Shown here: positions 14,710 to 23,691 of the stretch, one piece after another
Layout: each line of letters begins with the position of its first letter
Numbering within the stretch: position 1 is the first letter of the stretch
Sequence record: NC_025447.1
Length of the DNA: 64,000 nucleotides
Source of the DNA: Escherichia phage 121Q
Reading direction: 5' to 3' (one strand)
The notes under the pieces: model-generated
Databases searched by the model: none
What the model was told of the DNA's origin: nothing
What the model saw: only the letters and a program-made list of their open reading frames with translations
Program-made: the position numbers and the translations under genes

Positions 14710-16227
14710 ATGGATAATTTTTTCAGTACTGAAACTACCACAGTTCCTAATGGATATGTATATACGTCACATACTGGTGCAAAATATGTATTTCTTGAAG
14801 GATTCTGGTTCAATGACAATAATATGTTAATGGTAGACCCTAGAAAATACCCATCCATGTACGCAAGTGCTCGACAACAGATTGTCGAGCACAATCTAGC
14901 TTCAAATGAATATAAGATTGGTAACAAATATATTGTTGAAGGTAAAGAGTGTACATTTATTGGTGAAAACCGTTTCAATTCAAAAGATGGAATTCTATTA
15001 ACTGAAAGTGAATTCATCACTGAATTAATGGCAGATGATCATCGAGTATATAATGTTTCTAAAGAAACACTACAAAAAGAATGGAATGCATTAAAATTTT
15101 ACATTCTTCCACCATATGCTGATGATATATCAATTCCAGCAGGTATGGAAGTAAGTGGTTTTAAATTTGTGCCAAAGAATCACCGTTTTGTTGATATGAA
15201 ATCAGGACGAGCAGTTGATCCAGCAATGACCCGTAAACTATCAGATGAAGGTATGCGTATTGCTCGTCAGTTAGCTTCTAAAAATAAACTAATTCCAATC
15301 AAATCAACCTTAGTTCAAGGCAATACACGTTGTGAGTGGAATGGTAAAGAATTTTGTGATAATGATGGTAATGTAGTAATTCCAGAACAAAATGCACATG
15401 CAATTATTAATGCATATCAGCAATTTGTTAAGAATAACCCAAGTGATTTTCCTACATTAACGGGTGAACAAGAACATAGTGAGCAACGTTTTGGTTCAGG
15501 TGAAAAGCCACATAAAGCTTCACACCCTGCTAAACAGCCAGTATTTGCAACTAAAGAATCAATTAATGAAGCAGATGAAGAAATTGAAGAATTTGAAAGC
15601 ATTACTGTTCCTGACGGTTATAGAATGACTTCTTCTAAAGGAAAAACATACGCTAAGAAAAATAACTTGTGGTATGATATCGAAAGTAAAAAGCAACTTA
15701 ACACAAGTGCTTCTAAAAGTGTTGAACGAGCAGCACAGCGTGATATTTTCCGTCATAACAATTCCGGTGCTATGAAAATCGGTACAAAAGTTAAATCCAA
15801 ACAAGGCAAAGAATATTCGTATGTTGGTGGTGACAGATTCATTAGTGCTGATGGTAAGTTTATACCAAAAGCAACTGCTGCTAAATTACTTGCCAAATAT
15901 GAACAAGATAAAGAAGTTAAAAGTGATGAAACACCTGAAGTAGACTCTGGTACTGAGCAAATTCAATCAAAAGAAGAACCTAAGAAAGAACCAGAATCTG
16001 AACAAAAACCAGACGAAGTTTCTGAACCAGAAACTAAATCTGAAACAATTGCTGGTGATGATGTACAATCATTAGCTTCTAAAATTAAAGAGTCACCTTA
16101 TGCTAAAAAAATCACAGTACTACTAACTCGTGGTGATGAGGTTTCTCTACTTGCTGCTGACATTTTACTTTCAGGTAAAAAGGATGAAACAGTGCAAATT
16201 TTAAAATCATTAAATAATAATGATTGA
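14710..16227 (+). CDS. hypothetical protein with internal domain duplication
   Basis: ORF with AGGAG RBS; residues ~10-100 and ~300-395 share VP(N/D)GY..TS..G..Y and KIG.K....GKE..(F/Y)(I/V)G..RF patterns. Confidence 0.5.
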   Translation: MDNFFSTETTTVPNGYVYTSHTGAKYVFLEGFWFNDNNMLMVDPRKYPSMYASARQQIVEHNLASNEYKIGNKYIVEGKECTFIGENRFNSKDGILLTESEFITELMADDHRVYNVSKETLQKEWNALKFYILPPYADDISIPAGMEVSGFKFVPKNHRFVDMKSGRAVDPAMTRKLSDEGMRIARQLASKNKLIPIKSTLVQGNTRCEWNGKEFCDNDGNVVIPEQNAHAIINAYQQFVKNNPSDFPTLTGEQEHSEQRFGSGEKPHKASHPAKQPVFATKESINEADEEIEEFESITVPDGYRMTSSKGKTYAKKNNLWYDIESKKQLNTSASKSVERAAQRDIFRHNNSGAMKIGTKVKSKQGKEYSYVGGDRFISADGKFIPKATAAKLLAKYEQDKEVKSDETPEVDSGTEQIQSKEEPKKEPESEQKPDEVSEPETKSETIAGDDVQSLASKIKESPYAKKITVLLTRGDEVSLLAADILLSGKKDETVQILKSLNNND

Positions 16228-16249
16228 TAACTAAAAGGATTTATTTAAA

Positions 16250-17230
16250 ATGGCTAAAAAAATTAATGAAGCACAAGTTAAAATCGATATCGCAGGTTTA
16301 GAATCTGATGATTTGGAAACTCTATCACGTATGTTAGCTCTTGCTGGTCAAGCTGAACGTCAAGACCCAGTAGTTGCCGCTCCAGTACCATCTATGGGGT
16401 CTATGACTCCATCTCTTCCACCTATTGCTCCACTAGATCTCGATTCTATTGGTGCTGAAGAAGAAATTGGTGGAATTGAAACTTCAGTTGAAGACCCACT
16501 AGCAGCGGCAGTTGATGATCTTTCCGCTGATGTTGGTGATTTTGGTGCTGACACAGATGAAGTTAGTATGGATGCTGAATTTTCAGAACCAGGTGTAGAA
16601 GGTGAAGAAGATTTTTCTCTTGACCTTAGTGGTCAACCTCAACTAGAATCAGTTGAAGAAGACGATGAGGAAGAAGAAGAAATTATTGAAGAAGAATTCG
16701 ATTTTAGTCGTATGCTATCTCTTGCTGGTATTAACGAAGAAGAAGACGAAGATTTTTCAGTAGAGGGTAATCCTGCTACCGATAAAGAAATGAAAGATAC
16801 CCAATTTCTACCAGATCTAAGTATCTCTGAAGATGAAGAACCATCTAACAGTACTGATTATGGTCCATATGATACAGAAGCTGATGCCGTTCGTGATGGT
16901 CAACTAAAGACTAATGGTGTTGAAGGTGACCATTTTGTTGTAATTGCAAAAGGCAATCAATTTTATTGGAGACGTGTTGTAGATGAAGATCTTGACAATC
17001 GTCCAGAACCTGAGTATTATGATAATGAAGGGAACGAAAATCGTGTTCATAAATTTGAACCAAAATTCCCAGGCACTGCATTAGGAGATAACCCACTAAA
17101 TGTTAATGAAAGTGAAGAAGATGATTCACCTGAAGGTAACATTGACTTGGAAGATGATTCTGATGAAGAAGTAGAAGATATTTTTGAAAGTCTCCAAGAA
17201 AAATACAAGAAATTTTTAGGAGACAAATAA
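16250..17230 (+). CDS. highly acidic low-complexity protein
   Basis: Long Asp/Glu runs (DDEEEEEIIEEEFDF); AAGGA RBS. Confidence 0.5.
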   Translation: MAKKINEAQVKIDIAGLESDDLETLSRMLALAGQAERQDPVVAAPVPSMGSMTPSLPPIAPLDLDSIGAEEEIGGIETSVEDPLAAAVDDLSADVGDFGADTDEVSMDAEFSEPGVEGEEDFSLDLSGQPQLESVEEDDEEEEEIIEEEFDFSRMLSLAGINEEEDEDFSVEGNPATDKEMKDTQFLPDLSISEDEEPSNSTDYGPYDTEADAVRDGQLKTNGVEGDHFVVIAKGNQFYWRRVVDEDLDNRPEPEYYDNEGNENRVHKFEPKFPGTALGDNPLNVNESEEDDSPEGNIDLEDDSDEEVEDIFESLQEKYKKFLGDK

Positions 17231-17231
17231 T

Positions 17232-17627
17232 ATGCAATATAATTATCGTGAACTAGTTGAAGCGTTAGACGAAATTACCGGAAGAGATGAAGACGAAAGT
17301 TTTTCAGTTGAAGTTGAATCCGATGTTGTAGCAGTTGATGTTCTTAAGGATATTACCAAATGTCTTATTGATATTGTTGATAAGATTAAATCTGGTGAAG
17401 ACCAAAAAGAAATTGTAGATAAACTACAAAAAGCCTGTGACATTTTGTCTGACATTCGATATAATGATGAAAGTACTGAAGTTGCTGATGAAGAAGTGTT
17501 GGAAGCCATTGCAGGTTGTTTTGGAACTGAAGGTATGGGACCAACAATTGACAAAGAAGGCGTACAACACTATAATGAGCCTGGTGCACCATCATATGCT
17601 GCACGTCAAGGTTTTGTTGGAGACTAA
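17232..17627 (+). CDS. acidic hypothetical protein
   Basis: ORF with AGGAG RBS, tightly coupled to upstream gene. Confidence 0.5.
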   Translation: MQYNYRELVEALDEITGRDEDESFSVEVESDVVAVDVLKDITKCLIDIVDKIKSGEDQKEIVDKLQKACDILSDIRYNDESTEVADEEVLEAIAGCFGTEGMGPTIDKEGVQHYNEPGAPSYAARQGFVGD

Positions 17628-17630
17628 TAT

Positions 17631-18011
17631 ATGTTTCCAGAACCATCACATAACAGTACTGAATATCAAAATAATGTACTTTCCAAAGTTAGGGAAGTAC
17701 ATGAATCAGATTCAGAAATAACAGACCGTATGCTTCTGATGTCAATTTTTGAAAATTTCAGAACTGGCGGTGGTTTACGTCTTAGCAAGTTTGGGTATGG
17801 AATTTGTAAAGAAAATAATCTTTATGAATTTACAAAAATCCCCTTGCAAAGAGAATTTAAAAGTTCTATAATGTTTACATCACTTGACAGAATATGTACT
17901 TCACCTTATTATGTTGAAGGTCAGTACATATATCTGACAGATGCAATGATAATAACTGAATTAACATTGTGTTGTGACGATTTTAAACAGTTATTTTCTA
18001 TTCATATGTAA
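17631..18011 (+). CDS. hypothetical protein
   Basis: ORF with GGAG RBS. Confidence 0.45.
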   Translation: MFPEPSHNSTEYQNNVLSKVREVHESDSEITDRMLLMSIFENFRTGGGLRLSKFGYGICKENNLYEFTKIPLQREFKSSIMFTSLDRICTSPYYVEGQYIYLTDAMIITELTLCCDDFKQLFSIHM

Positions 18012-18035
18012 GAAAAAATGAATTAAAAATAAATG

Positions 18036-18063
18036 TTGACAAGATAGAATGATGTGATACAAT
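18036..18063 (+). promoter_or_regulatory. putative sigma70-type promoter P1 (TTGACA-N16-TACAAT)
   Basis: TTGACA at 18036-18041, TGtgaTACAAT ending 18063. Confidence 0.5.
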
Positions 18064-18128
18064 AAGCATCAGACATAAAGTTTTCAAGCGACACAAGATG
18101 TGAGTTTGAAAAAAAAAGAAAAAAAGTG

Positions 18129-18156
18129 ATTGACAAGTTGAAACGATGTGATATAA
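18129..18156 (+). promoter_or_regulatory. putative sigma70-type promoter P2 (TTGACA-N16-TATAAT, consensus boxes)
   Basis: TTGACA 18129-18134, 16-nt spacer, TGaTATAAT ending 18156. Confidence 0.55.
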
Positions 18157-18218
18157 TGTTCACATCAAGACAGCAAAGAGATTTACCTTTTAAACACACG
18201 GATGATTCATGAAGTAAC

Positions 18219-18266
18219 AAAGGAACTGATAAGTTAAATTATTTTAACACAGTTCCTTTACTTTTG
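18219..18266 (+). promoter_or_regulatory. stem-loop in 5' leader of MoxR gene (10-bp stem AAAGGAACTG/CAGTTCCTTT, 21-nt loop)
   Basis: Perfect inverted repeat 18219-18228 / 18250-18259; weak T-tract after. Confidence 0.3.
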
Positions 18267-18326
18267 CCCACGGATTGGCTATAATAGAAACTTAAACGAT
18301 TTTATCCAACAAAAGGAAATATATAC

Positions 18327-19652
18327 ATGACTACTCAAAACGATATCCTGAACGTTAAACTGACTCCAAAGAAAGCTAAAGAAGCAATGGCACTAGCTGA
18401 CATGATTCAAGATAGCCTGATGATTTGGGGTAGCCCAGGTATCGGTAAGTCTGCAATCGCTCGTCAATACGCTGATGAAAATTACCCACTGCGTAAAGAT
18501 AACGTAGCTAAAATCGAGTTCATGAAACAACAAATCGAAGCTGACCCTGAAAATGCTGATCAGCTACGCCGTGAACTGGCTGCATTTGAAGCAAAACTAA
18601 TCGACCAAGATACTAACTTTATCGATTTCCGTTTGTCTCAAATCGAACCAAGTGACCTTCGCGGTATTCCAGTACCAGAGAAGCTTTTCCGTAAAACTGA
18701 CGGTTCTCTTCTGAAAGAATCTGAGCTTGCCGAAGCAAAAGATTATGTAGCTGAAACTGCGGTAGTATGGGCTGCACCTAAAGTTCTGAAATTGTCCGAA
18801 GATTGGAAAGGTGTTATTCTGTTTGACGAAATTAACTCTGCAATGCCTATTGTTCAGGCAGCGTCTTATCAGCTAATCCTCGACCGTTGTGTTGGTGAGA
18901 TGAAGCTACCTAAGACTGCACTGATTCTTGCAGCAGGTAACCGTGAAACTGATGGCGGTGTAACTTTCTCTCTTGCTACACCACTGCGTGACCGTATGAC
19001 TCACATTGAGATGATTCCTTATCATCAAGATTGGATTAACGATTATGCGATTGCAAAACGTTTGAACCCAGCAACTGTTGCGTTCATCAACAACACTGGT
19101 TCTAAGTACTTTAACACACTTAGTCCACAAGATCCTTCTCACAGTGGTGGTACTTCTCCACGTTCATGGGAAGCAGTAGCACGCTACGAAGATCTCAAGA
19201 AAACTAAGACAATTGATAAAGAAGTGTTCCGTGCAATGATTGCTGGTCGTGTTGGTGAAGGTGTTGCAACTGAATACATTGAGTACGTTGAGAACGTTGC
19301 TAAACTACCAGATACTATGTCTATTCTGTCTGGTGAAATCAAAGAAATCGACGCAACGCTGGATATTTCTGCGAACTACTTTATCACTCTGAACTTGGTT
19401 TATAAAATTATCGACCTGTTCAATGAGAAGCAAGAACAACGTCTACCAGTGGAAGAATGGGGTAAACTGTGTAACAACTTCATCACCTTCCTAGACCATA
19501 ACTTCTCTGCAACTCAAGCAGAACTGGCAGTACTGGCAATTCGTACCATCACGCTTCATAAGGTTGCGATTTCCATTAAAGATGTACCAGCGTTTAAAGA
19601 TTTCATCGCTAAGTACTCTGAACTTGTACGTAAAGCACGCTCTCTTGGCTAA
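18327..19652 (+). CDS. MoxR-like AAA+ ATPase
   Basis: Walker A GSPGIGKS, Walker B ILFDEIN, Arg-rich sensor region; long insertion between Walker A and B. Confidence 0.8.
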   Translation: MTTQNDILNVKLTPKKAKEAMALADMIQDSLMIWGSPGIGKSAIARQYADENYPLRKDNVAKIEFMKQQIEADPENADQLRRELAAFEAKLIDQDTNFIDFRLSQIEPSDLRGIPVPEKLFRKTDGSLLKESELAEAKDYVAETAVVWAAPKVLKLSEDWKGVILFDEINSAMPIVQAASYQLILDRCVGEMKLPKTALILAAGNRETDGGVTFSLATPLRDRMTHIEMIPYHQDWINDYAIAKRLNPATVAFINNTGSKYFNTLSPQDPSHSGGTSPRSWEAVARYEDLKKTKTIDKEVFRAMIAGRVGEGVATEYIEYVENVAKLPDTMSILSGEIKEIDATLDISANYFITLNLVYKIIDLFNEKQEQRLPVEEWGKLCNNFITFLDHNFSATQAELAVLAIRTITLHKVAISIKDVPAFKDFIAKYSELVRKARSLG

Positions 19653-19671
19653 TTAACAAAGAGTTGTTGAC

Positions 19672-19703
19672 AAGAAGGATGCCTAATGGTATCCTTCTTT
19701 TAT
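19672..19703 (+). terminator. terminator/attenuator between MoxR and VWA genes
   Basis: AAGAAGGAT-10 nt loop-ATCCTTCTT then TTTAT. Confidence 0.45.
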
Positions 19704-19726
19704 CTTAACTAAACGAGGAAATATAC

Positions 19727-21151
19727 ATGTCAGATAACAAATCTACTTCCAGATTCAATGAAGTATCTCCGGCACTCCAGAAAGAATGTCAAGATCGTCT
19801 GGTTCTGGCTCGTACATCTTTGATGTTAACTGCACCATTCTTTGGTGTACTCGCTTCACGTTTACGTCCAGTTCCTAATAATACATGGTGTCGTACTCTA
19901 GCAGTTGATGGTAAACATCTATTCTACAACGTAGAATTTGTAATGGGTATTCAAGACCCATCTAAAAAGAAAGAATATGAAGAAGCTATTCGTGAAAAGC
20001 ATCCTGAAGTTACAGACGAACAATTAAAAGAAATGACTGAAGGTTTGACTGATGAAAACCTTATTGCTGTAATTTGTCATGAAATTCTACACTGTGCTTA
20101 CGATCACTTCCTTCGTCGTGGTATGCGTGATCCACAACGTTATAACCGTGCAGCGGATTATGCCATTAACCAAATCATCGTTCGTGAGAAAATTGGAAAA
20201 ATCCAAAGTTCATGGTTGTATGATAAAAAATATGAAGGTATGACCGCAGAAGAGATTTACATTCTTCTTGAAGAAGAAGAACAAAAAGAAGATGGTGAAG
20301 GTGAAGGTCAACCACAAAGTGGCGGCGGTGAAGGTGAAGGTAAAAATCGCGGTACTTTTGGTGATATTAAAGATGGTAAGGGTAAACCAAAAGGTACTAC
20401 CATTGACCAGCATGACGTTCCACAAGAAGGTCAAGAAGGTGGTTCAAGTGAACAGCAAAAACGTGATTATATGGATGATTTCAAAACAGCAATGATGAAT
20501 GCTGCACGTGCAGGTGGTACACCAGCAGAAATCGCTCGTATGATTAACAACTTTAAAGAACCAAAGATTGACTGGCGTTCAAAACTTCAACGTACACTTC
20601 GTAGTTGGTTGAAGTCTGATGCAACGTATCAAAGTCCTTCTCGTCGTTCATGGGGTGCTGGTTTTGGTTCTAATGGTTCATTCTATGGTAATCCAATTTA
20701 CCCAGGGATGAAACCAGATGATGATATTGATATTGCGATTGCACTAGATGCTTCTGGGTCTATTTCTGAAGATATGCTTCGTGATTTCATTAGTGAAGTT
20801 CTTGGCATCACTAAACAATTCAAACAGTTTAAGATTCGTATCATGACTTTTGATACTGAAGTTTATACTGTAAAGGATTACAAAACTGGCGAAGAACGTA
20901 AGATTCTGGAATATCCAGTAAAAGGTGGTGGTGGTACTGACTTTGAAGCAGTATGGGTTCATATGAAGAACGACAACTACAAGCCTAAACAGCTTGTAAT
21001 GTTTACTGATGGTGAACCGTGGCAGTCATGGGGTGATCCAAACTACTGTAAAACACTGTTCGTGATTCACAGTAACCCAAATAAAGTTGCACCATTTGGT
21101 GAGACTGTACACTACGAATATGAAGCTGATAAAAAGCGTCAACGTAGTTAA
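19727..21151 (+). CDS. metallopeptidase-like (HExxH) / von Willebrand factor A domain protein, partner of the MoxR ATPase
   Basis: HEILH motif near residue 119; Gly/Glu-rich linker; C-terminal MIDAS-like DASGS ... MFTDGEP typical of VWA domains. Confidence 0.75.
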   Translation: MSDNKSTSRFNEVSPALQKECQDRLVLARTSLMLTAPFFGVLASRLRPVPNNTWCRTLAVDGKHLFYNVEFVMGIQDPSKKKEYEEAIREKHPEVTDEQLKEMTEGLTDENLIAVICHEILHCAYDHFLRRGMRDPQRYNRAADYAINQIIVREKIGKIQSSWLYDKKYEGMTAEEIYILLEEEEQKEDGEGEGQPQSGGGEGEGKNRGTFGDIKDGKGKPKGTTIDQHDVPQEGQEGGSSEQQKRDYMDDFKTAMMNAARAGGTPAEIARMINNFKEPKIDWRSKLQRTLRSWLKSDATYQSPSRRSWGAGFGSNGSFYGNPIYPGMKPDDDIDIAIALDASGSISEDMLRDFISEVLGITKQFKQFKIRIMTFDTEVYTVKDYKTGEERKILEYPVKGGGGTDFEAVWVHMKNDNYKPKQLVMFTDGEPWQSWGDPNYCKTLFVIHSNPNKVAPFGETVHYEYEADKKRQRS

Positions 21152-21162
21152 GTACTAAATAA

Positions 21163-21194
21163 AGAGAACGGAATTTTCCGTTCTCTTCTTTTAT
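21163..21194 (+). terminator. rho-independent terminator after VWA gene
   Basis: AGAGAACGG-aatttt-CCGTTCTCT then TCTTTTAT. Confidence 0.65.
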
Positions 21195-21196
21195 AA

Positions 21197-21226
21197 GTGG
21201 GACAACTTATAAAAATATGATATAAT
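21197..21226 (+). promoter_or_regulatory. putative early promoter, motif GTGGGACA-N13-TGATATAAT (second copy)
   Basis: Directly after terminator of VWA gene; identical box spacing to 2184-2213. Confidence 0.4.
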
Positions 21227-21260
21227 AGTTAATGTACCAATATACATGGAGAGTATTAAA

Positions 21261-21506
21261 ATGGAACAAGAAAATAATCAAATTCAACTAACCCTTCTAG
21301 ACCTAATCAATGCTGCAAAAATCATGGAAGCTGCTGTTGCACGAAACACCTTTAAAGTTGAAGAACTTGTTGAGGTTGCTCCAGTTGTATCTAAATTTGT
21401 TTCTTTTGCAAATGTAGCTCTTGAAGATATTAAAGCACAAGAAGATGCAGCTAAAGAAGAAGCTGAATCACAAGATAGTGAAACTCAAGAAGATAAAGGA
21501 GAATAA
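21261..21506 (+). CDS. small acidic hypothetical protein
   Basis: ORF track 21246-21506; ATG 21261 has GGAGAG 7 nt upstream. Confidence 0.45.
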   Translation: MEQENNQIQLTLLDLINAAKIMEAAVARNTFKVEELVEVAPVVSKFVSFANVALEDIKAQEDAAKEEAESQDSETQEDKGE

Positions 21507-21508
21507 TT

Positions 21509-22165
21509 ATGGCAGCTATTCGTCATGTTGGTGTAATGCGTAATACAGGTTCTCGTGTTTTTGTTGTTTGGCGTTCACTACCAGATGATCCTGAACACTG
21601 CCTTATCGTTTATCGTGATTCACTACCAGAAGCATATGTTCACGCAGTAACTGATATTGTTATGGGTCATGGTCAATCTAATATTGATTTGTGGGAAGTA
21701 ATGCATAAAATTGGTTATCTCGATGGACGCAAAATGCTAGATGTTCTACACAACATGCAGCATCTACGTCGCGTTCGTACTTGTGACATTGATATGCACA
21801 CTGGTGGTAATAATAAAATTTCTCTTGATGTTCTAAACAAAGCATTAGATGAAAATCAAGCGAAAGTACAAGAAGATGGTAAAGTAAAAGACTTTAACCC
21901 ATTCAATCCACAAGAAGCGGACACTAAAGTAGAAGAAGCTACTATTGTAGAACAACTTCTCACTGATGCACAAAAATATGAAAAACTGGCTAAAGAACAT
22001 TATGAACGTGCATACAATTTAGAGCCAAGCTTGCGTCCGCAAACACAAGTTGTTGAACAACCGAAAGATAGTAAAACAATTTATCTAGAAATTCCAGAAG
22101 GTATTTCACAGACTAAAGCTATTGAGAAAGTAAAACAACTATTTGCAGAACGTAAAGCAAAATAA
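21509..22165 (+). CDS. hypothetical protein
   Basis: ORF with AAGGAG RBS; coupled to neighbours. Confidence 0.5.
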   Translation: MAAIRHVGVMRNTGSRVFVVWRSLPDDPEHCLIVYRDSLPEAYVHAVTDIVMGHGQSNIDLWEVMHKIGYLDGRKMLDVLHNMQHLRRVRTCDIDMHTGGNNKISLDVLNKALDENQAKVQEDGKVKDFNPFNPQEADTKVEEATIVEQLLTDAQKYEKLAKEHYERAYNLEPSLRPQTQVVEQPKDSKTIYLEIPEGISQTKAIEKVKQLFAERKAK

Positions 22166-22168
22166 AAT

Positions 22169-22762
22169 ATGAAAAAGAATGAATTAGATGAAGCAATTAA
22201 AGGTTTATCTAATGTATGTTTTAGTGGCGGGGCAGCAGGTGCTGACCGCCTTTTTTCTATCTATGCAAAAAATAATGGATTTGAAGTTATTAATTTTTCA
22301 TTCAAAGGTCATGAGCATAGTGTAGATGAAAGTACTATATTAGAAATACCATCCAATATTCTATCTGATATTTCTATATTAAATCAACTAAACATTGCAT
22401 GTTACTCGTTGCAGCGAAAAGTACCAAAACCTGGTTCTTATGTTTACAACTTACTTGCAAGGAATAGTTATCAGATACTTAATACAGAAAGAATATATTG
22501 TATTGCAAATATCACATCACCAACTAAGGTAAGTGGTGGTACTGCATGGGCAGTACAGATGTATATGGATTCAGTTGAAAATCCTGAAATTTATTGTTAT
22601 GATATGAATTCACGTTCAGTATTTTATTTCGATACAGTACTGAAAGAGTTCACACAAACATTCGTCGTTCCAGCACCACATGGTAACTGGACTGGTATTG
22701 GTTCACGCAATGCCACCGAAAAACATATGGAACATTTTATTACATTTTTCAAGGAAGAATAA
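22169..22762 (+). CDS. Rossmann-like protein, possible SLOG (Smf/DprA-LOG) superfamily member
   Basis: CFSGGAAGADRLFS near N-terminus and later SGGTAWAVQ resemble the two glycine-rich SLOG motifs; stop overlaps td start. Confidence 0.4.
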   Translation: MKKNELDEAIKGLSNVCFSGGAAGADRLFSIYAKNNGFEVINFSFKGHEHSVDESTILEIPSNILSDISILNQLNIACYSLQRKVPKPGSYVYNLLARNSYQILNTERIYCIANITSPTKVSGGTAWAVQMYMDSVENPEIYCYDMNSRSVFYFDTVLKEFTQTFVVPAPHGNWTGIGSRNATEKHMEHFITFFKEE

Positions 22763-23691
22763 TGAAACAACTACAAGAACTATATCAAAAAATTCTAGAT
22801 GAAGGCGTAGAAAGCGTTGACCGTACTGGTGTTGGAACAATCAAACTTATCGGTCAACAAATGCGTTTTGACCTTAAAGATGGTTTCCCAGCAGTGACGA
22901 CAAAACGTCTAGCTTGGAAAGCAATGACTTCAGAATTACTATGGTTTATTGAAGGTTCCCATGATGAGCGTCGCCTTTGTGAAATTTTGCATGGAACTCG
23001 TGATACAGAAAAGAAAACTATTTGGACAGATAATTACCTAAATCAAGGCGTTGCTCTTGGTTATACTGATGGTGAGTTAGGTCCAGTGTATGGTAAGCAA
23101 TGGCGTGAATGGGAAGATTATAAATTTAGTTCCAGTACTGAAGAAATTCAAGAATTAAAAGATAAAGGATACAAAGTTATCGATTATACTGGTTCACATG
23201 GTGTTGTTATGAAACGTACAACTGACCAATTACAAGAACTAATCAAAGGTATAAAGTCCGATCCATATGGCCGTCGCCACATTCTAAGTGCATGGAACGT
23301 TGGTGAGCTTGATGATATGACGTTACCACCTTGTCATAGCTTTGTGCAATTTTGTGTAGTGCAAGGAAAACTAAGCTGTATTCTGCATCAACGCTCCGCT
23401 GATCTATTTTTAGGAGTTCCATTTAATATCAGTAGTTACTCACTACTAACTCATATGATTGCACAAATTACTGGTTTAGATGTTGGTGAATTTATTTGGA
23501 ATGGTGGTGATTGTCACATTTATAAAAACCACGTTGAACAAGTAAAAGAACAACTACAGCGAAAACCTCGTGAATTACCTGAATTGTGGCTTGATCCTAC
23601 AATTACTAATATTGAAGATTTCACTATGGATTCTTTTAAATTAGTGAATTACAACCCAATGCCAACAATTAAAGCACCTATGGCTGTATAA
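22762..23691 (+). CDS. td: thymidylate synthase (ThyA type, T4 td-like), uninterrupted
   Basis: DRTGVGT, KRLAWKA, catalytic LPPCH, QRSADLFLGVPFNISSYSLLTHMIA, GGDCHIYKNHVEQ; matches T4 td from memory. Confidence 0.9.
   Translation: MKQLQELYQKILDEGVESVDRTGVGTIKLIGQQMRFDLKDGFPAVTTKRLAWKAMTSELLWFIEGSHDERRLCEILHGTRDTEKKTIWTDNYLNQGVALGYTDGELGPVYGKQWREWEDYKFSSSTEEIQELKDKGYKVIDYTGSHGVVMKRTTDQLQELIKGIKSDPYGRRHILSAWNVGELDDMTLPPCHSFVQFCVVQGKLSCILHQRSADLFLGVPFNISSYSLLTHMIAQITGLDVGEFIWNGGDCHIYKNHVEQVKEQLQRKPRELPELWLDPTITNIEDFTMDSFKLVNYNPMPTIKAPMAV

What the first reader, a model, noticed from the sequence alone, without database searches (positions are those of the whole stretch)
18327..21151. MoxR-like AAA+ ATPase plus metallopeptidase-like/VWA protein: a two-gene module of unknown function
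Adjacent genes: a MoxR-type AAA+ ATPase (Walker A GSPGIGKS, Walker B ILFDEIN, with an unusually long insertion between them) and a 474-aa protein with an N-terminal HExxH segment (HEILH), a Gly/Glu-rich low-complexity linker and a C-terminal VWA domain with a MIDAS-like DASGS motif. MoxR-VWA pairs are chaperone-like systems in bacteria; here the pair sits inside a phage virion-gene region behind two near-consensus sigma70 promoters, arguing for early host-RNAP transcription rather than a late structural role. I know of no described function in this phage lineage; an assembly chaperone, a host-takeover factor or a counter-defence role are all open.
Basis: partly seen in the sequence, partly recalled or inferred. 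Interest (0 to 1): 0.7.

Follow-up and report, generated by a model that had tools for sequence, protein, structure and literature searches.

The report
Phage MoxR ATPase plus VWA-peptidase pair
Two neighbouring genes in this jumbo coliphage encode an ATP-driven motor and a partner protein that joins a protein-binding domain to a zinc peptidase; the pair is real and very widespread in phages and plasmids and was already described, but nobody has tested what it does.

Summary
ORF 18327-19652 encodes a MoxR-class AAA+ ATPase. ORF 19727-21151 encodes a DUF2201_N zincin peptidase joined to a DUF2201 VWA domain with a complete MIDAS site.

The window is 100% identical to coliphage phAPEC6 (Asteriusvirus). 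That record already labels the genes "MoxR ATPase" and "N4 gp25-like protein". Profile searches show they are homologues of phage N4 gp24/gp25, a core, middle-expressed pair of N4-like phages with no known function. Iyer et al. 2021 described what appears to be the same pair in jumbo phages and proposed a virion-assembly role.

All catalytic motifs are kept in every lineage I compared. The order ATPase then VWA-peptidase holds in 26 of 29 genome loci. No third gene is always linked.

The same module also sits on 129 plasmids, some of them conjugative. That argues against a strictly virion-building role.

Near-consensus sigma-70 promoter matches upstream are real, clustered and partly conserved in RaK2. 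A hairpin plus U-run lies between them and the gene.

My best reading is an ATP-driven remodelling protease made before late genes, acting on an unknown cytoplasmic protein. The pair is already known, so interest is moderate to low.

The parts
18036..18063 (+). Sigma-70-type promoter match P1 (TTGACA, 16 nt, TG-TACAAT; 11 of 12)
   Evidence: This is a sequence match only; no transcript data are available.
18130..18157 (+). Sigma-70-type promoter match P2 (TTGACA, 16 nt, TG-TATAAT; 12 of 12), preceded by an A-rich tract
   Evidence: A 12 of 12 TG-extended counterpart lies about 270 nt upstream of the RaK2 ATPase gene.
18221..18266 (+). Hairpin followed by a U-run (TTTACTTTT), lying between P1/P2 and the ATPase start codon; possible attenuator or end of a short leader transcript
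   Evidence: The fold of 18164-18275 has MFE -19.8 kcal/mol and z -2.5. The hairpin and U-run are conserved in RaK2. No Rfam family matches.
18257..18285 (+). Weaker promoter match P3 (TTTACT, 17 nt, TATAAT; 10 of 12), overlapping the U-run
   Evidence: Partly conserved in RaK2.
18311..18319 (+). Shine-Dalgarno-like AAAAGGAAA, 7 nt before the ATG
   Evidence: Conserved in RaK2.
18327..19652 (+). MoxR-class AAA+ ATPase gene (441 aa; phAPEC6 gp265c; homologue of N4 gp24). Motifs: Walker A at 18429-18452, H2-insert motif DLRGIP at 18654-18671, Walker B at 18816-18836, sensor 1 AAGN at 18930-18953, Arg finger PLRDR at 18981-18995, sensor 2 PRSW at 19155-19169
   Evidence: phrog_1297 E 3e-107. Alignment A1 shows the invariant residues. 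AF2 model pLDDT 86.8. Foldseek best hits are NorQ (E 7e-7) and CbbQ2. The A1 HMM hits N4 gp24 at E 2.7e-50.
19672..19699 (+). 12-bp hairpin plus U-run in the 74-nt spacer between the two genes; possible partial terminator that lowers partner expression relative to the ATPase
   Evidence: Fold -21.8 kcal/mol, z -5.2. An equivalent hairpin with a different sequence occurs in RaK2 and fHe-Yen9-04. Its function is inferred.
19727..21151 (+). Zincin peptidase plus VWA(MIDAS) protein gene (474 aa; phAPEC6 gp264c; homologue of N4 gp25)
   Evidence: DUF2201_N E 2.7e-34 and DUF2201 E 7e-21. The A2 HMM hits N4 gp25 at E 1.1e-37. AF2 model pLDDT 79.3.
20078..20107 (+). Zinc-site motif HEILHCAYDH (HExxHxxxxH); a further invariant Asp lies in AADYAIN at 20150-20170
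   Evidence: H118, E119, H122 and D144 are invariant, and H127 is invariant or nearly so. The motif is kept in N4, G7C, rV5-like, PA5oct, phage G and plasmid homologues. The N-domain profile hits minigluzincin MJ1213 (E 0.0013) and an M48 peptidase (E 0.01).
20279..20446 (+). Gly/Glu/Lys-rich variable loop inside the peptidase domain, holding a conserved Asp (D227 in IDQHD, 20402-20416)
   Evidence: Low pLDDT at 193-209. D227 and H229 are invariant in A2. The Asp is kept in all six lineages compared.
20636..20653 (+). Conserved PSRRSW motif in a segment predicted to be disordered, just before the VWA domain; a candidate contact with the ATPase (inference)
   Evidence: R306 and W309 are nearly invariant, and P326 and G327 are invariant. 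pLDDT is below 50 for 297-329.
20747..21016 (+). [quoted passage not shown]
21162..21187 (+). Intrinsic-terminator-like hairpin (11 bp) plus U-run, ending the two-gene unit
   Evidence: Fold -25.5 kcal/mol, z -4.8.

Best explanation
The two genes encode a two-part, ATP-driven remodelling protease of the phage N4 gp24/gp25 family.

Proposed mechanism:
1. The MoxR-type ATPase forms a ring.
2. The ring docks the VWA domain of the partner protein.
3. The metal ion in the partner's MIDAS site grips an acidic residue on a target protein.
4. ATP hydrolysis strains or opens the target, or removes a self-inhibiting loop of the partner.
5. The M48-like zinc peptidase domain on the same polypeptide then cleaves.

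The module is probably transcribed by host RNA polymerase before the late genes. It probably acts in the cytoplasm on a protein that is not a virion part. The likeliest target is a conserved host protein, or a protein of the element itself, tied to DNA replication or to establishing the incoming DNA.

Shown here: the folds, the conserved motifs, the homology, the gene linkage, and the distribution across phages and plasmids.
Inferred: complex formation, proteolysis, expression timing in this phage, and the kind of target.
For: Folds and active sites:
- The ATPase model is closest to NorQ in the NorQ-NorD complexes and to CbbQ.
- Walker A and B, sensor 1, the Arg finger and sensor 2 are conserved.
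- Its zincin domain has an invariant HExxH.
- All these motifs are kept in N4-like, rV5-like, RaK2-like, PA5oct, phage G and plasmid homologues.

Linkage:
- The ATPase gene lies upstream on the same strand in 26 of 29 genome loci.
- The two genes are also linked in every phage lineage examined, on the same strand except in the rV5-like phage.
- No third gene is universally linked, so the pair looks self-contained.

Mechanistic precedent:
- In NorQD, the VWA domain plugs the ATPase pore and the MIDAS site binds carboxylates on the target (PMC9976466, PMC13036017).

Evidence that it is not tied to virions:
- The same module sits on 129 plasmids.
- One is a conjugative B. gladioli plasmid, where it lies next to a DnaN-like clamp gene, a PRTRC ThiF-family gene and type IV secretion genes.
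- In alphaproteobacterial chromosomal loci, the pair lies with DNA ligase, DnaN-like and methyltransferase genes.
- It is also on Synechocystis plasmid pSYSA.

Timing:
- N4 gp24/gp25 are middle genes on the replication-gene strand.
- Strong sigma-70 promoter matches lie upstream here and in RaK2.
Against: - No experiment addresses this family.
- The ATPase was found by mass spectrometry in phAPEC6 virion preparations (6 peptides, 19% coverage), and the PA5oct homologue carries an ESI-MS/MS flag in its record. The phAPEC6 list also holds thymidylate synthase, a topoisomerase subunit and SSB, so co-purification is plausible.
- In RaK2-like phages the pair directly follows genes for virion proteins.
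- Known MoxR/VWA pairs remodel their targets rather than degrade them.
- Whether this compact VWA domain has the pore-inserting "finger" could not be checked.
- A hairpin plus U-run lies between the strong promoter matches and the gene, so those promoters may drive a separate short transcript.
- Plasmid neighbours are simply other backbone genes, and co-location is weak functional evidence.
Confidence: 0.4

Rival explanations
1. The pair is a virion-assembly chaperone and protease. The MoxR-VWA pair helps fold or assemble structural proteins and trims them, as Iyer et al. 2021 proposed for jumbo phages by analogy with the MoxR-vWA pair of Acidianus two-tailed virus.
For: - This is the published proposal (PMC7824862).
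- ATPase peptides were found in phAPEC6 virion preparations, and the PA5oct homologue is flagged ESI-MS/MS in its record.
- In this window and in RaK2, the pair directly follows genes labelled virion structural proteins.
- In N4-like roseophages, some virion-protein genes lie near the gp24/gp25 homologues.
- Assembly chaperones can be made before late genes (general knowledge).
Against: - The same two-gene module, with intact active sites, occurs on 129 plasmids and in chromosomal elements that build no virions.
- It spans phages with very different virions: N4-like podoviruses, rV5-like and RaK2-like myoviruses, and phage G.
- The N4 homologues are middle genes and are not among the listed N4 virion proteins.
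- The partner protein gp264c was not detected in phAPEC6 virions.
- That mass-spectrometry list also contains plainly non-structural enzymes.
- RaK2 does not label either protein as structural.
Confidence: 0.25
2. The pair is a counter-defence device. It recognises one or more host immune proteins and destroys or disables them early in infection.
For: - The pair is probably expressed before late genes.
- It occurs on many kinds of mobile element that must survive entry into a new cell.
- On pSYSA it sits among toxin-antitoxin genes.
- A protease with a binding adaptor is a plausible way to remove a host protein (inference).
Against: - It is a core gene pair of all N4-like phages, across hosts from Escherichia to Roseobacter. 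It is also conserved across RaK2-like genera. Counter-defence genes are usually variable accessory genes (general knowledge).
- There were no matches to PADLOC models.
- No link to known defence or anti-defence loci was seen in the phage contexts.
Confidence: 0.12
3. The pair is a metal-insertion or enzyme-activating chaperone like NorQD, CbbQO or the chelatases. It would act on a metalloenzyme of the phage, for example in nucleotide metabolism, and the HExxH domain would serve in binding rather than cleavage.
For: - The closest solved relatives, NorQ/NorD and CbbQ, do exactly this.
- Thymidylate synthase and dCTP deaminase genes lie within a few kb of the pair, in this window, RaK2, N4 and G7C.
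Against: - HExxH and the further His and Asp are invariant across very distant lineages, which points to catalysis.
- No enzyme gene is consistently linked to the pair.
- Matches to the Mg-chelatase family are below threshold.
- The plasmid contexts carry no such enzymes.
Confidence: 0.1

Closest known systems
Phage N4 gp24 (AAA ATPase) and gp25 (vWFA protein), core genes of N4-like phages (Schitoviridae)
   Same: Both proteins are homologous (HMM E 2.7e-50 and 1.1e-37). The domain architecture is the same: N4 gp25 scores DUF2201_N 3e-87 and DUF2201 1.4e-46. Gene order is the same, and so are the catalytic motifs.
   Different: The window proteins are longer. The ATPase has two insertions between Walker A and B, and the peptidase domain has about 30 extra residues plus a longer Gly/Glu loop. 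N4 transcribes the pair with its own RNA polymerase II. Here the upstream signals look like host sigma-70 promoters.
MoxR AAA+ and metallopeptidase-vWA pair of 'group 2.2' jumbo phages (Iyer et al. 2021, Viruses 13:63)
   Same: The described architecture and phage type fit this pair.
   Different: I could not fetch their example proteins (ASV44729.1 and ASV44728.2) to test homology directly. Their proposed role is virion assembly, and the plasmid distribution found here argues against it.
NorQ/NorD and CbbQ/CbbO (bacterial MoxR/VWA remodelling pairs)
   Different: Sequence identity is only 12-15%. NorD and CbbO have no peptidase domain and act on a known enzyme encoded nearby. The window ATPase has a longer C-terminal helical region and extra insertions. 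The VWA domain here is compact (about 130 aa), and a pore-inserting finger was not verified.
M48 peptidases and minigluzincins (HtpX, BepA, MJ1213 projannalysin)
   Same: The N-domain profile aligns across the strand-helix-HExxH core (E 0.0013 to 0.01).
   Different: The match is marginal and covers only about 45 residues. The third zinc ligand is not assigned. None of these enzymes is fused to a VWA domain.
Acidianus two-tailed virus MoxR-vWA pair, and the Bacillus phage 0305phi8-36 orf066/orf063 pair
   Same: These are viral MoxR plus vWA pairs. In 0305phi8-36, a deletion covering both genes gave viable phage with a growth defect.
   Different: They belong to different families. The 0305phi8-36 proteins do not match the A1 or A2 profiles. 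Its ATPase is of the bpMoxR/AAA_5 type, and orf063 has no DUF2201 domains. Neither virus has the peptidase fusion.

Membership tests
MoxR-class AAA+ ATPase | Walker A, Walker B, sensor 1 Asn, Arg finger and sensor 2 Arg | tested here: met
   G35, G38, K41 and S42 are invariant, as are E168, N205, R223, P278 and R279; D167 is nearly invariant. All are kept in N4, G7C, rV5-like and PA5oct homologues.
MoxR-class AAA+ ATPase | Match to the Pfam MoxR-type models (AAA_3, AAA_5) above their curated cut-offs | tested here: not met
   AAA_3 scored 16.7 bits against a cut-off of 27, and AAA_5 scored 15.6 against 22. Only the generic AAA model barely passed (21.3 against 21.2). Shorter homologues that lack the insertions do carry PF07726/PF07728 hits.
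MoxR-class AAA+ ATPase | Fold closest to solved MoxR ATPases | tested here: met
   The top Foldseek hits are NorQ (9qh4, 9qh8, 9qhd; E about 1e-6, target TM about 0.6) and CbbQ2 (6l1q).
MoxR-class AAA+ ATPase | Adjacent gene for a VWA partner | tested here: met
   The partner gene lies 74 nt downstream. Linkage holds in 26 of 29 genome loci and in all phage lineages checked.
MoxR-class AAA+ ATPase | Hexamer formation and ATP hydrolysis | not testable with these tools
   This needs purified protein.
VWA domain with MIDAS | VWA (Rossmann-like) fold | tested here: met
VWA domain with MIDAS | Complete DxSxS...T...D metal site | tested here: met
   D341, S343, S345, T404 and D428 are invariant in 45 sequences and in six distant lineages and plasmids.
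VWA domain with MIDAS | Beta-hairpin 'finger' that enters the MoxR pore (NorD type) | tested here: inconclusive
   The secondary-structure string shows no obvious extra hairpin in the compact domain. Model coordinates could not be inspected.
DUF2201_N zincin metallopeptidase | Pfam match above cut-off | tested here: met
   119.5 bits against a cut-off of 23.2, E 2.7e-34.
DUF2201_N zincin metallopeptidase | HExxH zinc and catalytic motif | tested here: met
   H118, E119 and H122 are invariant and are kept in all lineages.
DUF2201_N zincin metallopeptidase | Identified third zinc ligand and peptidase activity | not testable with these tools
   H127 and D144 are conserved candidates. No solved structure or assay exists for this family.
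N4 gp24/gp25 family | Homology of both proteins to N4 gp24 and gp25, with the same gene order | tested here: met
   HMM E-values are 2.7e-50 and 1.1e-37. Gene order is the same in N4.
HNH endonuclease (the label of phrog_1314 and of many GenBank records for the second protein) | HNH domain | tested here: not met
   No HNH family appears in Pfam at E up to 0.1. N4 gp25, which is labelled HNH endonuclease, is DUF2201_N plus DUF2201. The label is a propagated error.
Anti-phage MoxR-vWA ternary systems (VMAP, iSTAND, FtsH and beta-propeller types; Kaur et al. 2020) | A conserved third component, and a bpMoxR-type ATPase or a PADLOC model match | tested here: not met
   No third gene is conserved. 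PADLOC gave no hits. Pfam gave no bpMoxR hit for the window ATPase.
ATP-dependent chelatases (BchI/BchD, CobS/CobT) | Match to chelatase models above threshold | tested here: not met
   Mg_chelatase scored 16.4 bits against a cut-off of 20.3, over residues 14-50 only. No CobS or CobT model was hit.

The most novel reading that the evidence does not exclude
The gp24/gp25-type module may be a split, adaptor-guided ATP-dependent protease shared by virulent phages, plasmids and integrative elements. It would clear or cleave a conserved DNA-associated host protein so that incoming foreign DNA can replicate. Candidate targets are a replication-hub or DNA-bound protein recognised through an acidic tail. 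This would be a bacterial-virus counterpart of the eukaryotic Wss1/SPRTN-Cdc48 arrangement. The conserved Asp in the flexible acidic loop might occupy the MIDAS site or the zinc site and keep the protease latent until the ATPase pulls it away.
Probability: 0.15. Interest if true: 0.75.

Novelty: already known. Interest (0 to 1): 0.3.

Why it matters
The family is very large. It covers 25,022 clusters at 50% identity. It is a core gene pair of N4-like phages and is conserved in several groups of jumbo and rV5-like phages used in therapy research. Yet no one has tested what it does.

Showing that the same module is carried by plasmids narrows the hypotheses away from virion building. It also suggests simple experiments in tractable systems such as N4, the BASEL rV5-like phages or Burkholderia plasmids.

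For this window the finding adds no new kind of system. The genes are already annotated in the identical public genome.

Tried and rejected
- Genetic evidence from Bacillus phage 0305phi8-36. A deletion removing its MoxR and vWA genes is viable with a growth defect. I rejected this as evidence because those proteins do not match the A1 or A2 profiles and belong to another MoxR/vWA family.
- PADLOC and NCBIfam gave no hits.
- Direct searches of solved-structure sequences gave nothing significant for either whole protein. Only the N-domain profile gave marginal hits to M48 peptidases and a minigluzincin.
- Gene-level expression data for the PA5oct homologues could not be obtained because no supplements are held. 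The phage G, CRISPRi-ART and phage Tn-seq papers do not cover this family.
- Literature searches for DUF2201, for MoxR/VWA in phages, for anti-defence roles and for PRTRC gave no functional study.
- Rfam found no known RNA family in the leader or intergenic regions. The window holds no tRNA genes.
- The "HNH endonuclease" and "anti-sigma factor" labels on homologues were considered and rejected. There is no HNH domain. The rV5-like "anti-sigma factor" protein bas58_0056 matches neither profile and has no Pfam family.
- A third conserved partner gene was sought in 29 genome loci and not found. The small genes conserved near the pair in RaK2-like phages, PA5oct and marine phage contigs were absent from the regions examined (about 5-7 kb on either side) in N4, rV5-like and phage G loci. 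I treat them as lineage synteny.
Full report
**Source and observation**

The 2,825-base stretch is 100% identical to Escherichia phage vB_EcoM_phAPEC6 and to phage SP27. It is at least 99% identical to 18 records of the PBECO4/121Q group, which are 350-kb jumbo myoviruses of the genus Asteriusvirus. The two ORFs are at the stated coordinates: 441 aa at 18327-19652 and 474 aa at 19727-21151, both on the + strand. Nothing longer than 78 aa lies on the opposite strand. The phAPEC6 record already calls them gp265c "ATPase; MoxR ATPase" and gp264c "N4 gp25-like protein".

**The ATPase**

Pfam gives only a marginal generic AAA match. Scores for AAA_3 and AAA_5 are below their cut-offs. PHROGs places the protein in phrog_1297 "ATPase" at E 3e-107.

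An alignment of 46 homologues (A1) shows these conserved positions:
- Invariant Walker A residues (G35, G38, K41, S42).
- Walker B (D167 and E168).
- Sensor 1 (N205).
- An arginine in PLRDR (R223).
- A PRSW sensor 2 (P278, R279).
- A DLRG(I/L)P motif at the position of the helix-2 insert.

The long gap between Walker A and Walker B comes from two insertions specific to the jumbo-phage clade. Relatives of about 360 aa lack them, and those relatives do carry AAA_3/AAA_5 hits.

The AlphaFold model has mean pLDDT 86.8. It is closest to NorQ, alone and in NorQ-NorD complexes, and to the Rubisco activase CbbQ2. Both are MoxR-class ATPases.

**The partner protein**

Pfam finds DUF2201_N ("putative metallopeptidase", E 2.7e-34) and DUF2201 ("VWA-like", E 7e-21). 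In 45 homologues (A2) the following residues are invariant:
- H118, E119 and H122.
- D144.
- The full MIDAS set: D341, S343, S345, T404 and D428.

H127 is nearly invariant in A2 and invariant in the wider N-domain alignment A4.

The Gly/Glu-rich stretch is an internal variable loop of the peptidase domain. Three conserved helices (242-296) follow it before the VWA domain. The loop holds an Asp (D227) that is kept in all six lineages compared. A second segment is predicted to be disordered but is conserved (PSRRSW...PG, residues 304-327). It directly precedes the VWA domain.

The "HNH endonuclease" label of phrog_1314, and of many GenBank records, is an error. No HNH domain is found.

**Relatives**

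tblastn finds the partner protein in 616 phage records. These include:
- RaK2-like jumbo phages.
- PA5oct.
- Salicola phage SCTP-2.
- rV5-like Vequintavirinae.
- N4-like Schitoviridae.
- Bacillus phage G.

HMMs built from A1 and A2 hit N4 gp24 (2.7e-50) and gp25 (1.1e-37). They also hit the PA5oct and rV5-like pairs and phage G gp576. N4 gp25 has the same two Pfam domains.

N4 gp24 and gp25 are two of the 14 core genes of N4-like phages. They are listed as "unknown" and "vWFA domain", and are described as middle gene transcripts (PMC4193335; PMC2784036). In N4-like phages, structural and lysis genes lie on the opposite strand and are strictly late. Middle genes mainly serve replication (PMC9163698).

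Catalytic motifs of both proteins are intact in all lineages. Homing-endonuclease genes have been inserted between the two genes in G7C and PA5oct. An exhaustive profile search finds 25,022 clusters at 50% identity with E up to 1e-3, and 18,212 with E up to 1e-10.

**Prior description**

Iyer et al. [quoted passage not shown] They propose a role in virion assembly with peptidolytic processing of structural proteins. The proposal rests on analogy with Acidianus two-tailed virus. I could not fetch their example proteins to test homology, but the description fits this pair. I found no experimental work on the family.

**Linkage and context**

A scan of one genome per prokaryotic species gave 29 loci. 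In 26 of them the ATPase homologue lies upstream on the same strand. No third gene is shared by all loci.

Many of these loci are phage contigs binned into metagenome-assembled genomes. Others lie in assemblies of cultured strains. In Pseudochrobactrum, the pair sits with a DUF3150 protein, an ATP-dependent DNA ligase, a DnaN-like clamp and a DUF4942 methyltransferase. Homologues of several of these neighbours recur in the Brucella, Rhizobium and Devosia loci.

tblastn finds the partner on 129 plasmids: 30 conjugative, 40 mobilizable and 59 non-mobilizable. Three examples:
- A conjugative Burkholderia gladioli plasmid, where the genes flank a DnaN-like gene and lie between a PRTRC ThiF-family gene and type IV secretion genes.
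- Rhodococcus plasmid pREL1.
- Synechocystis plasmid pSYSA, genes sll7029 and sll7028.

The three plasmid and chromosomal-element homologues I checked (B. gladioli, pREL1 and Pseudochrobactrum) match both profiles and keep HExxHxxxxH and the MIDAS residues. Elements that build no virions therefore carry the same module.

**Local anatomy**

The genes upstream (14710-17627) belong to PHROGs labelled virion structural proteins. ORF 17631-18011 is phrog_15638, of unknown function. Downstream come an 86-aa and a 218-aa protein of unknown function, then a SLOG/DprA-like protein, then thymidylate synthase. This gene order is the same in RaK2 and fHe-Yen9-04. Parts of it recur in PA5oct and in marine myophage contigs.

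The 315-nt spacer before the ATPase gene holds two near-consensus, TG-extended sigma-70 matches and a weaker third one. Sites with at least 11 of 12 matches are about three times more frequent in the window than in shuffles. Six of the 12 cluster on the + strand within 16992-18157. RaK2 keeps one 12 of 12 site in the same position.

Three hairpins mark the unit:
- One with a U-run, conserved in RaK2, lies between the strong promoter matches and the start codon.
- A 12-bp hairpin with a U-run lies between the two genes. It is kept in RaK2 and fHe-Yen9-04, where its sequence differs. It could reduce partner expression relative to the ATPase, which would suit a ring-to-adaptor ratio like that of NorQD. 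This is inference.
- A terminator-like hairpin follows the second gene.

**Virion proteomics**

The phAPEC6 study lists gp265c (the ATPase) among 62 "virion-associated" proteins, with 6 peptides and 19% coverage. It does not list gp264c. The same list holds thymidylate synthase, a topoisomerase subunit and SSB. Abundant non-structural proteins therefore co-purify. The PA5oct ATPase homologue is also flagged ESI-MS/MS in its record. RaK2 does not label either protein as structural. This is weak, unresolved evidence for a virion link.

**Mechanism**

The solved NorQ-NorD work shows three things. One VWA protein plugs the pore of a MoxR hexamer. The MIDAS site binds surface carboxylates of the target. 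ATP hydrolysis strains a linker in the adaptor (PMC9976466, PMC13036017).

By analogy, and given the invariant zincin site, I propose an adaptor-guided, ATP-driven remodelling protease. Three observations favour a cytoplasmic, pre-late function tied to replication or establishment of the element, rather than virion building:
- The pair occurs across phages with unrelated virions and on plasmids.
- The N4 homologues belong to the middle class.
- The upstream signals look like host promoters.

The target is unknown. I put this reading at 0.4, virion assembly at 0.25, dedicated counter-defence at 0.12, and a non-proteolytic activase or metal-insertion role at 0.1.

**Verdict**

The pair is already annotated in the identical public genome and has been described in the literature, so it is not novel. 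What remains open is the function of a very widespread module of mobile elements. The plasmid distribution shown here is a useful constraint on that question.

Noticed in passing
window 16992-18157 (+ strand): Six sigma-70-type matches with at least 11 of 12 consensus bases cluster in 1.2 kb. Four of them lie inside ORFs (16250-17230, 17232-17627, 17631-18011). The whole window has 12 such sites, against 4.2 +/- 2.2 in shuffles.
   Followed up: partly
window 17631-18011 (+): A 126-aa ORF is not annotated in the phAPEC6 record. It belongs to phrog_15638 (E 5e-74), equals RaK2 ORF052, and has relatives upstream of the pair in marine phage contigs.
   Followed up: partly
window 21246-21506 and 21509-22165 (+): Two genes of unknown function, an 86-aa protein (phrog_13789) and a 218-aa protein (phrog_15894), travel with the pair in RaK2, fHe-Yen9-04, PA5oct (inverted there) and marine myophage contigs. 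They were not seen in the regions examined around the pair in N4, rV5-like or phage G loci. The phAPEC6 homologue of the 218-aa protein gave one peptide in the virion mass spectrometry.
   Followed up: partly
window 19727-21151; L007 4165-5307; L037 4998-6383: The product name "HNH endonuclease" on phrog_1314, N4 gp25, RaK2 gp481 and many other records is a propagated mis-annotation. Only the DUF2201_N and DUF2201 domains are found.
   Followed up: yes
L002 3967-4443; L004 3440-4936: Genuine HNH or homing-endonuclease genes are inserted between the ATPase and partner genes in phage G7C (gp24.1) and PA5oct (EST35_0339). The conserved pair is therefore a target for selfish insertions.
   Followed up: no
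L039 6093-10194 (B. gladioli plasmid); L021 5863-13672: In plasmid and chromosomal-element versions, a DnaN-like sliding-clamp gene recurs within or near the pair. It is accompanied by DNA ligase, a DUF3150 protein, a DUF4942 methyltransferase and PRTRC genes.
   Followed up: partly
window 22169-22762 (+): A 197-aa SLOG/DprA-like protein (phrog_768 E 1e-26; weak YAcAr Pfam hit) lies directly upstream of thymidylate synthase (22762-23691). The arrangement is conserved in RaK2 and fHe-Yen9-04.
   Followed up: no
window 14710-16227 (+): The longest ORF here (505 aa, starting at 14710) begins 147 nt upstream of the start annotated in phAPEC6 (gp268c, 456 aa). The next gene (16250-17230) encodes a very acidic, low-complexity protein.
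   Followed up: no
window 18001-22000: G+C content is slightly higher (0.375-0.393) than the window average of about 0.34-0.35.
   Followed up: no
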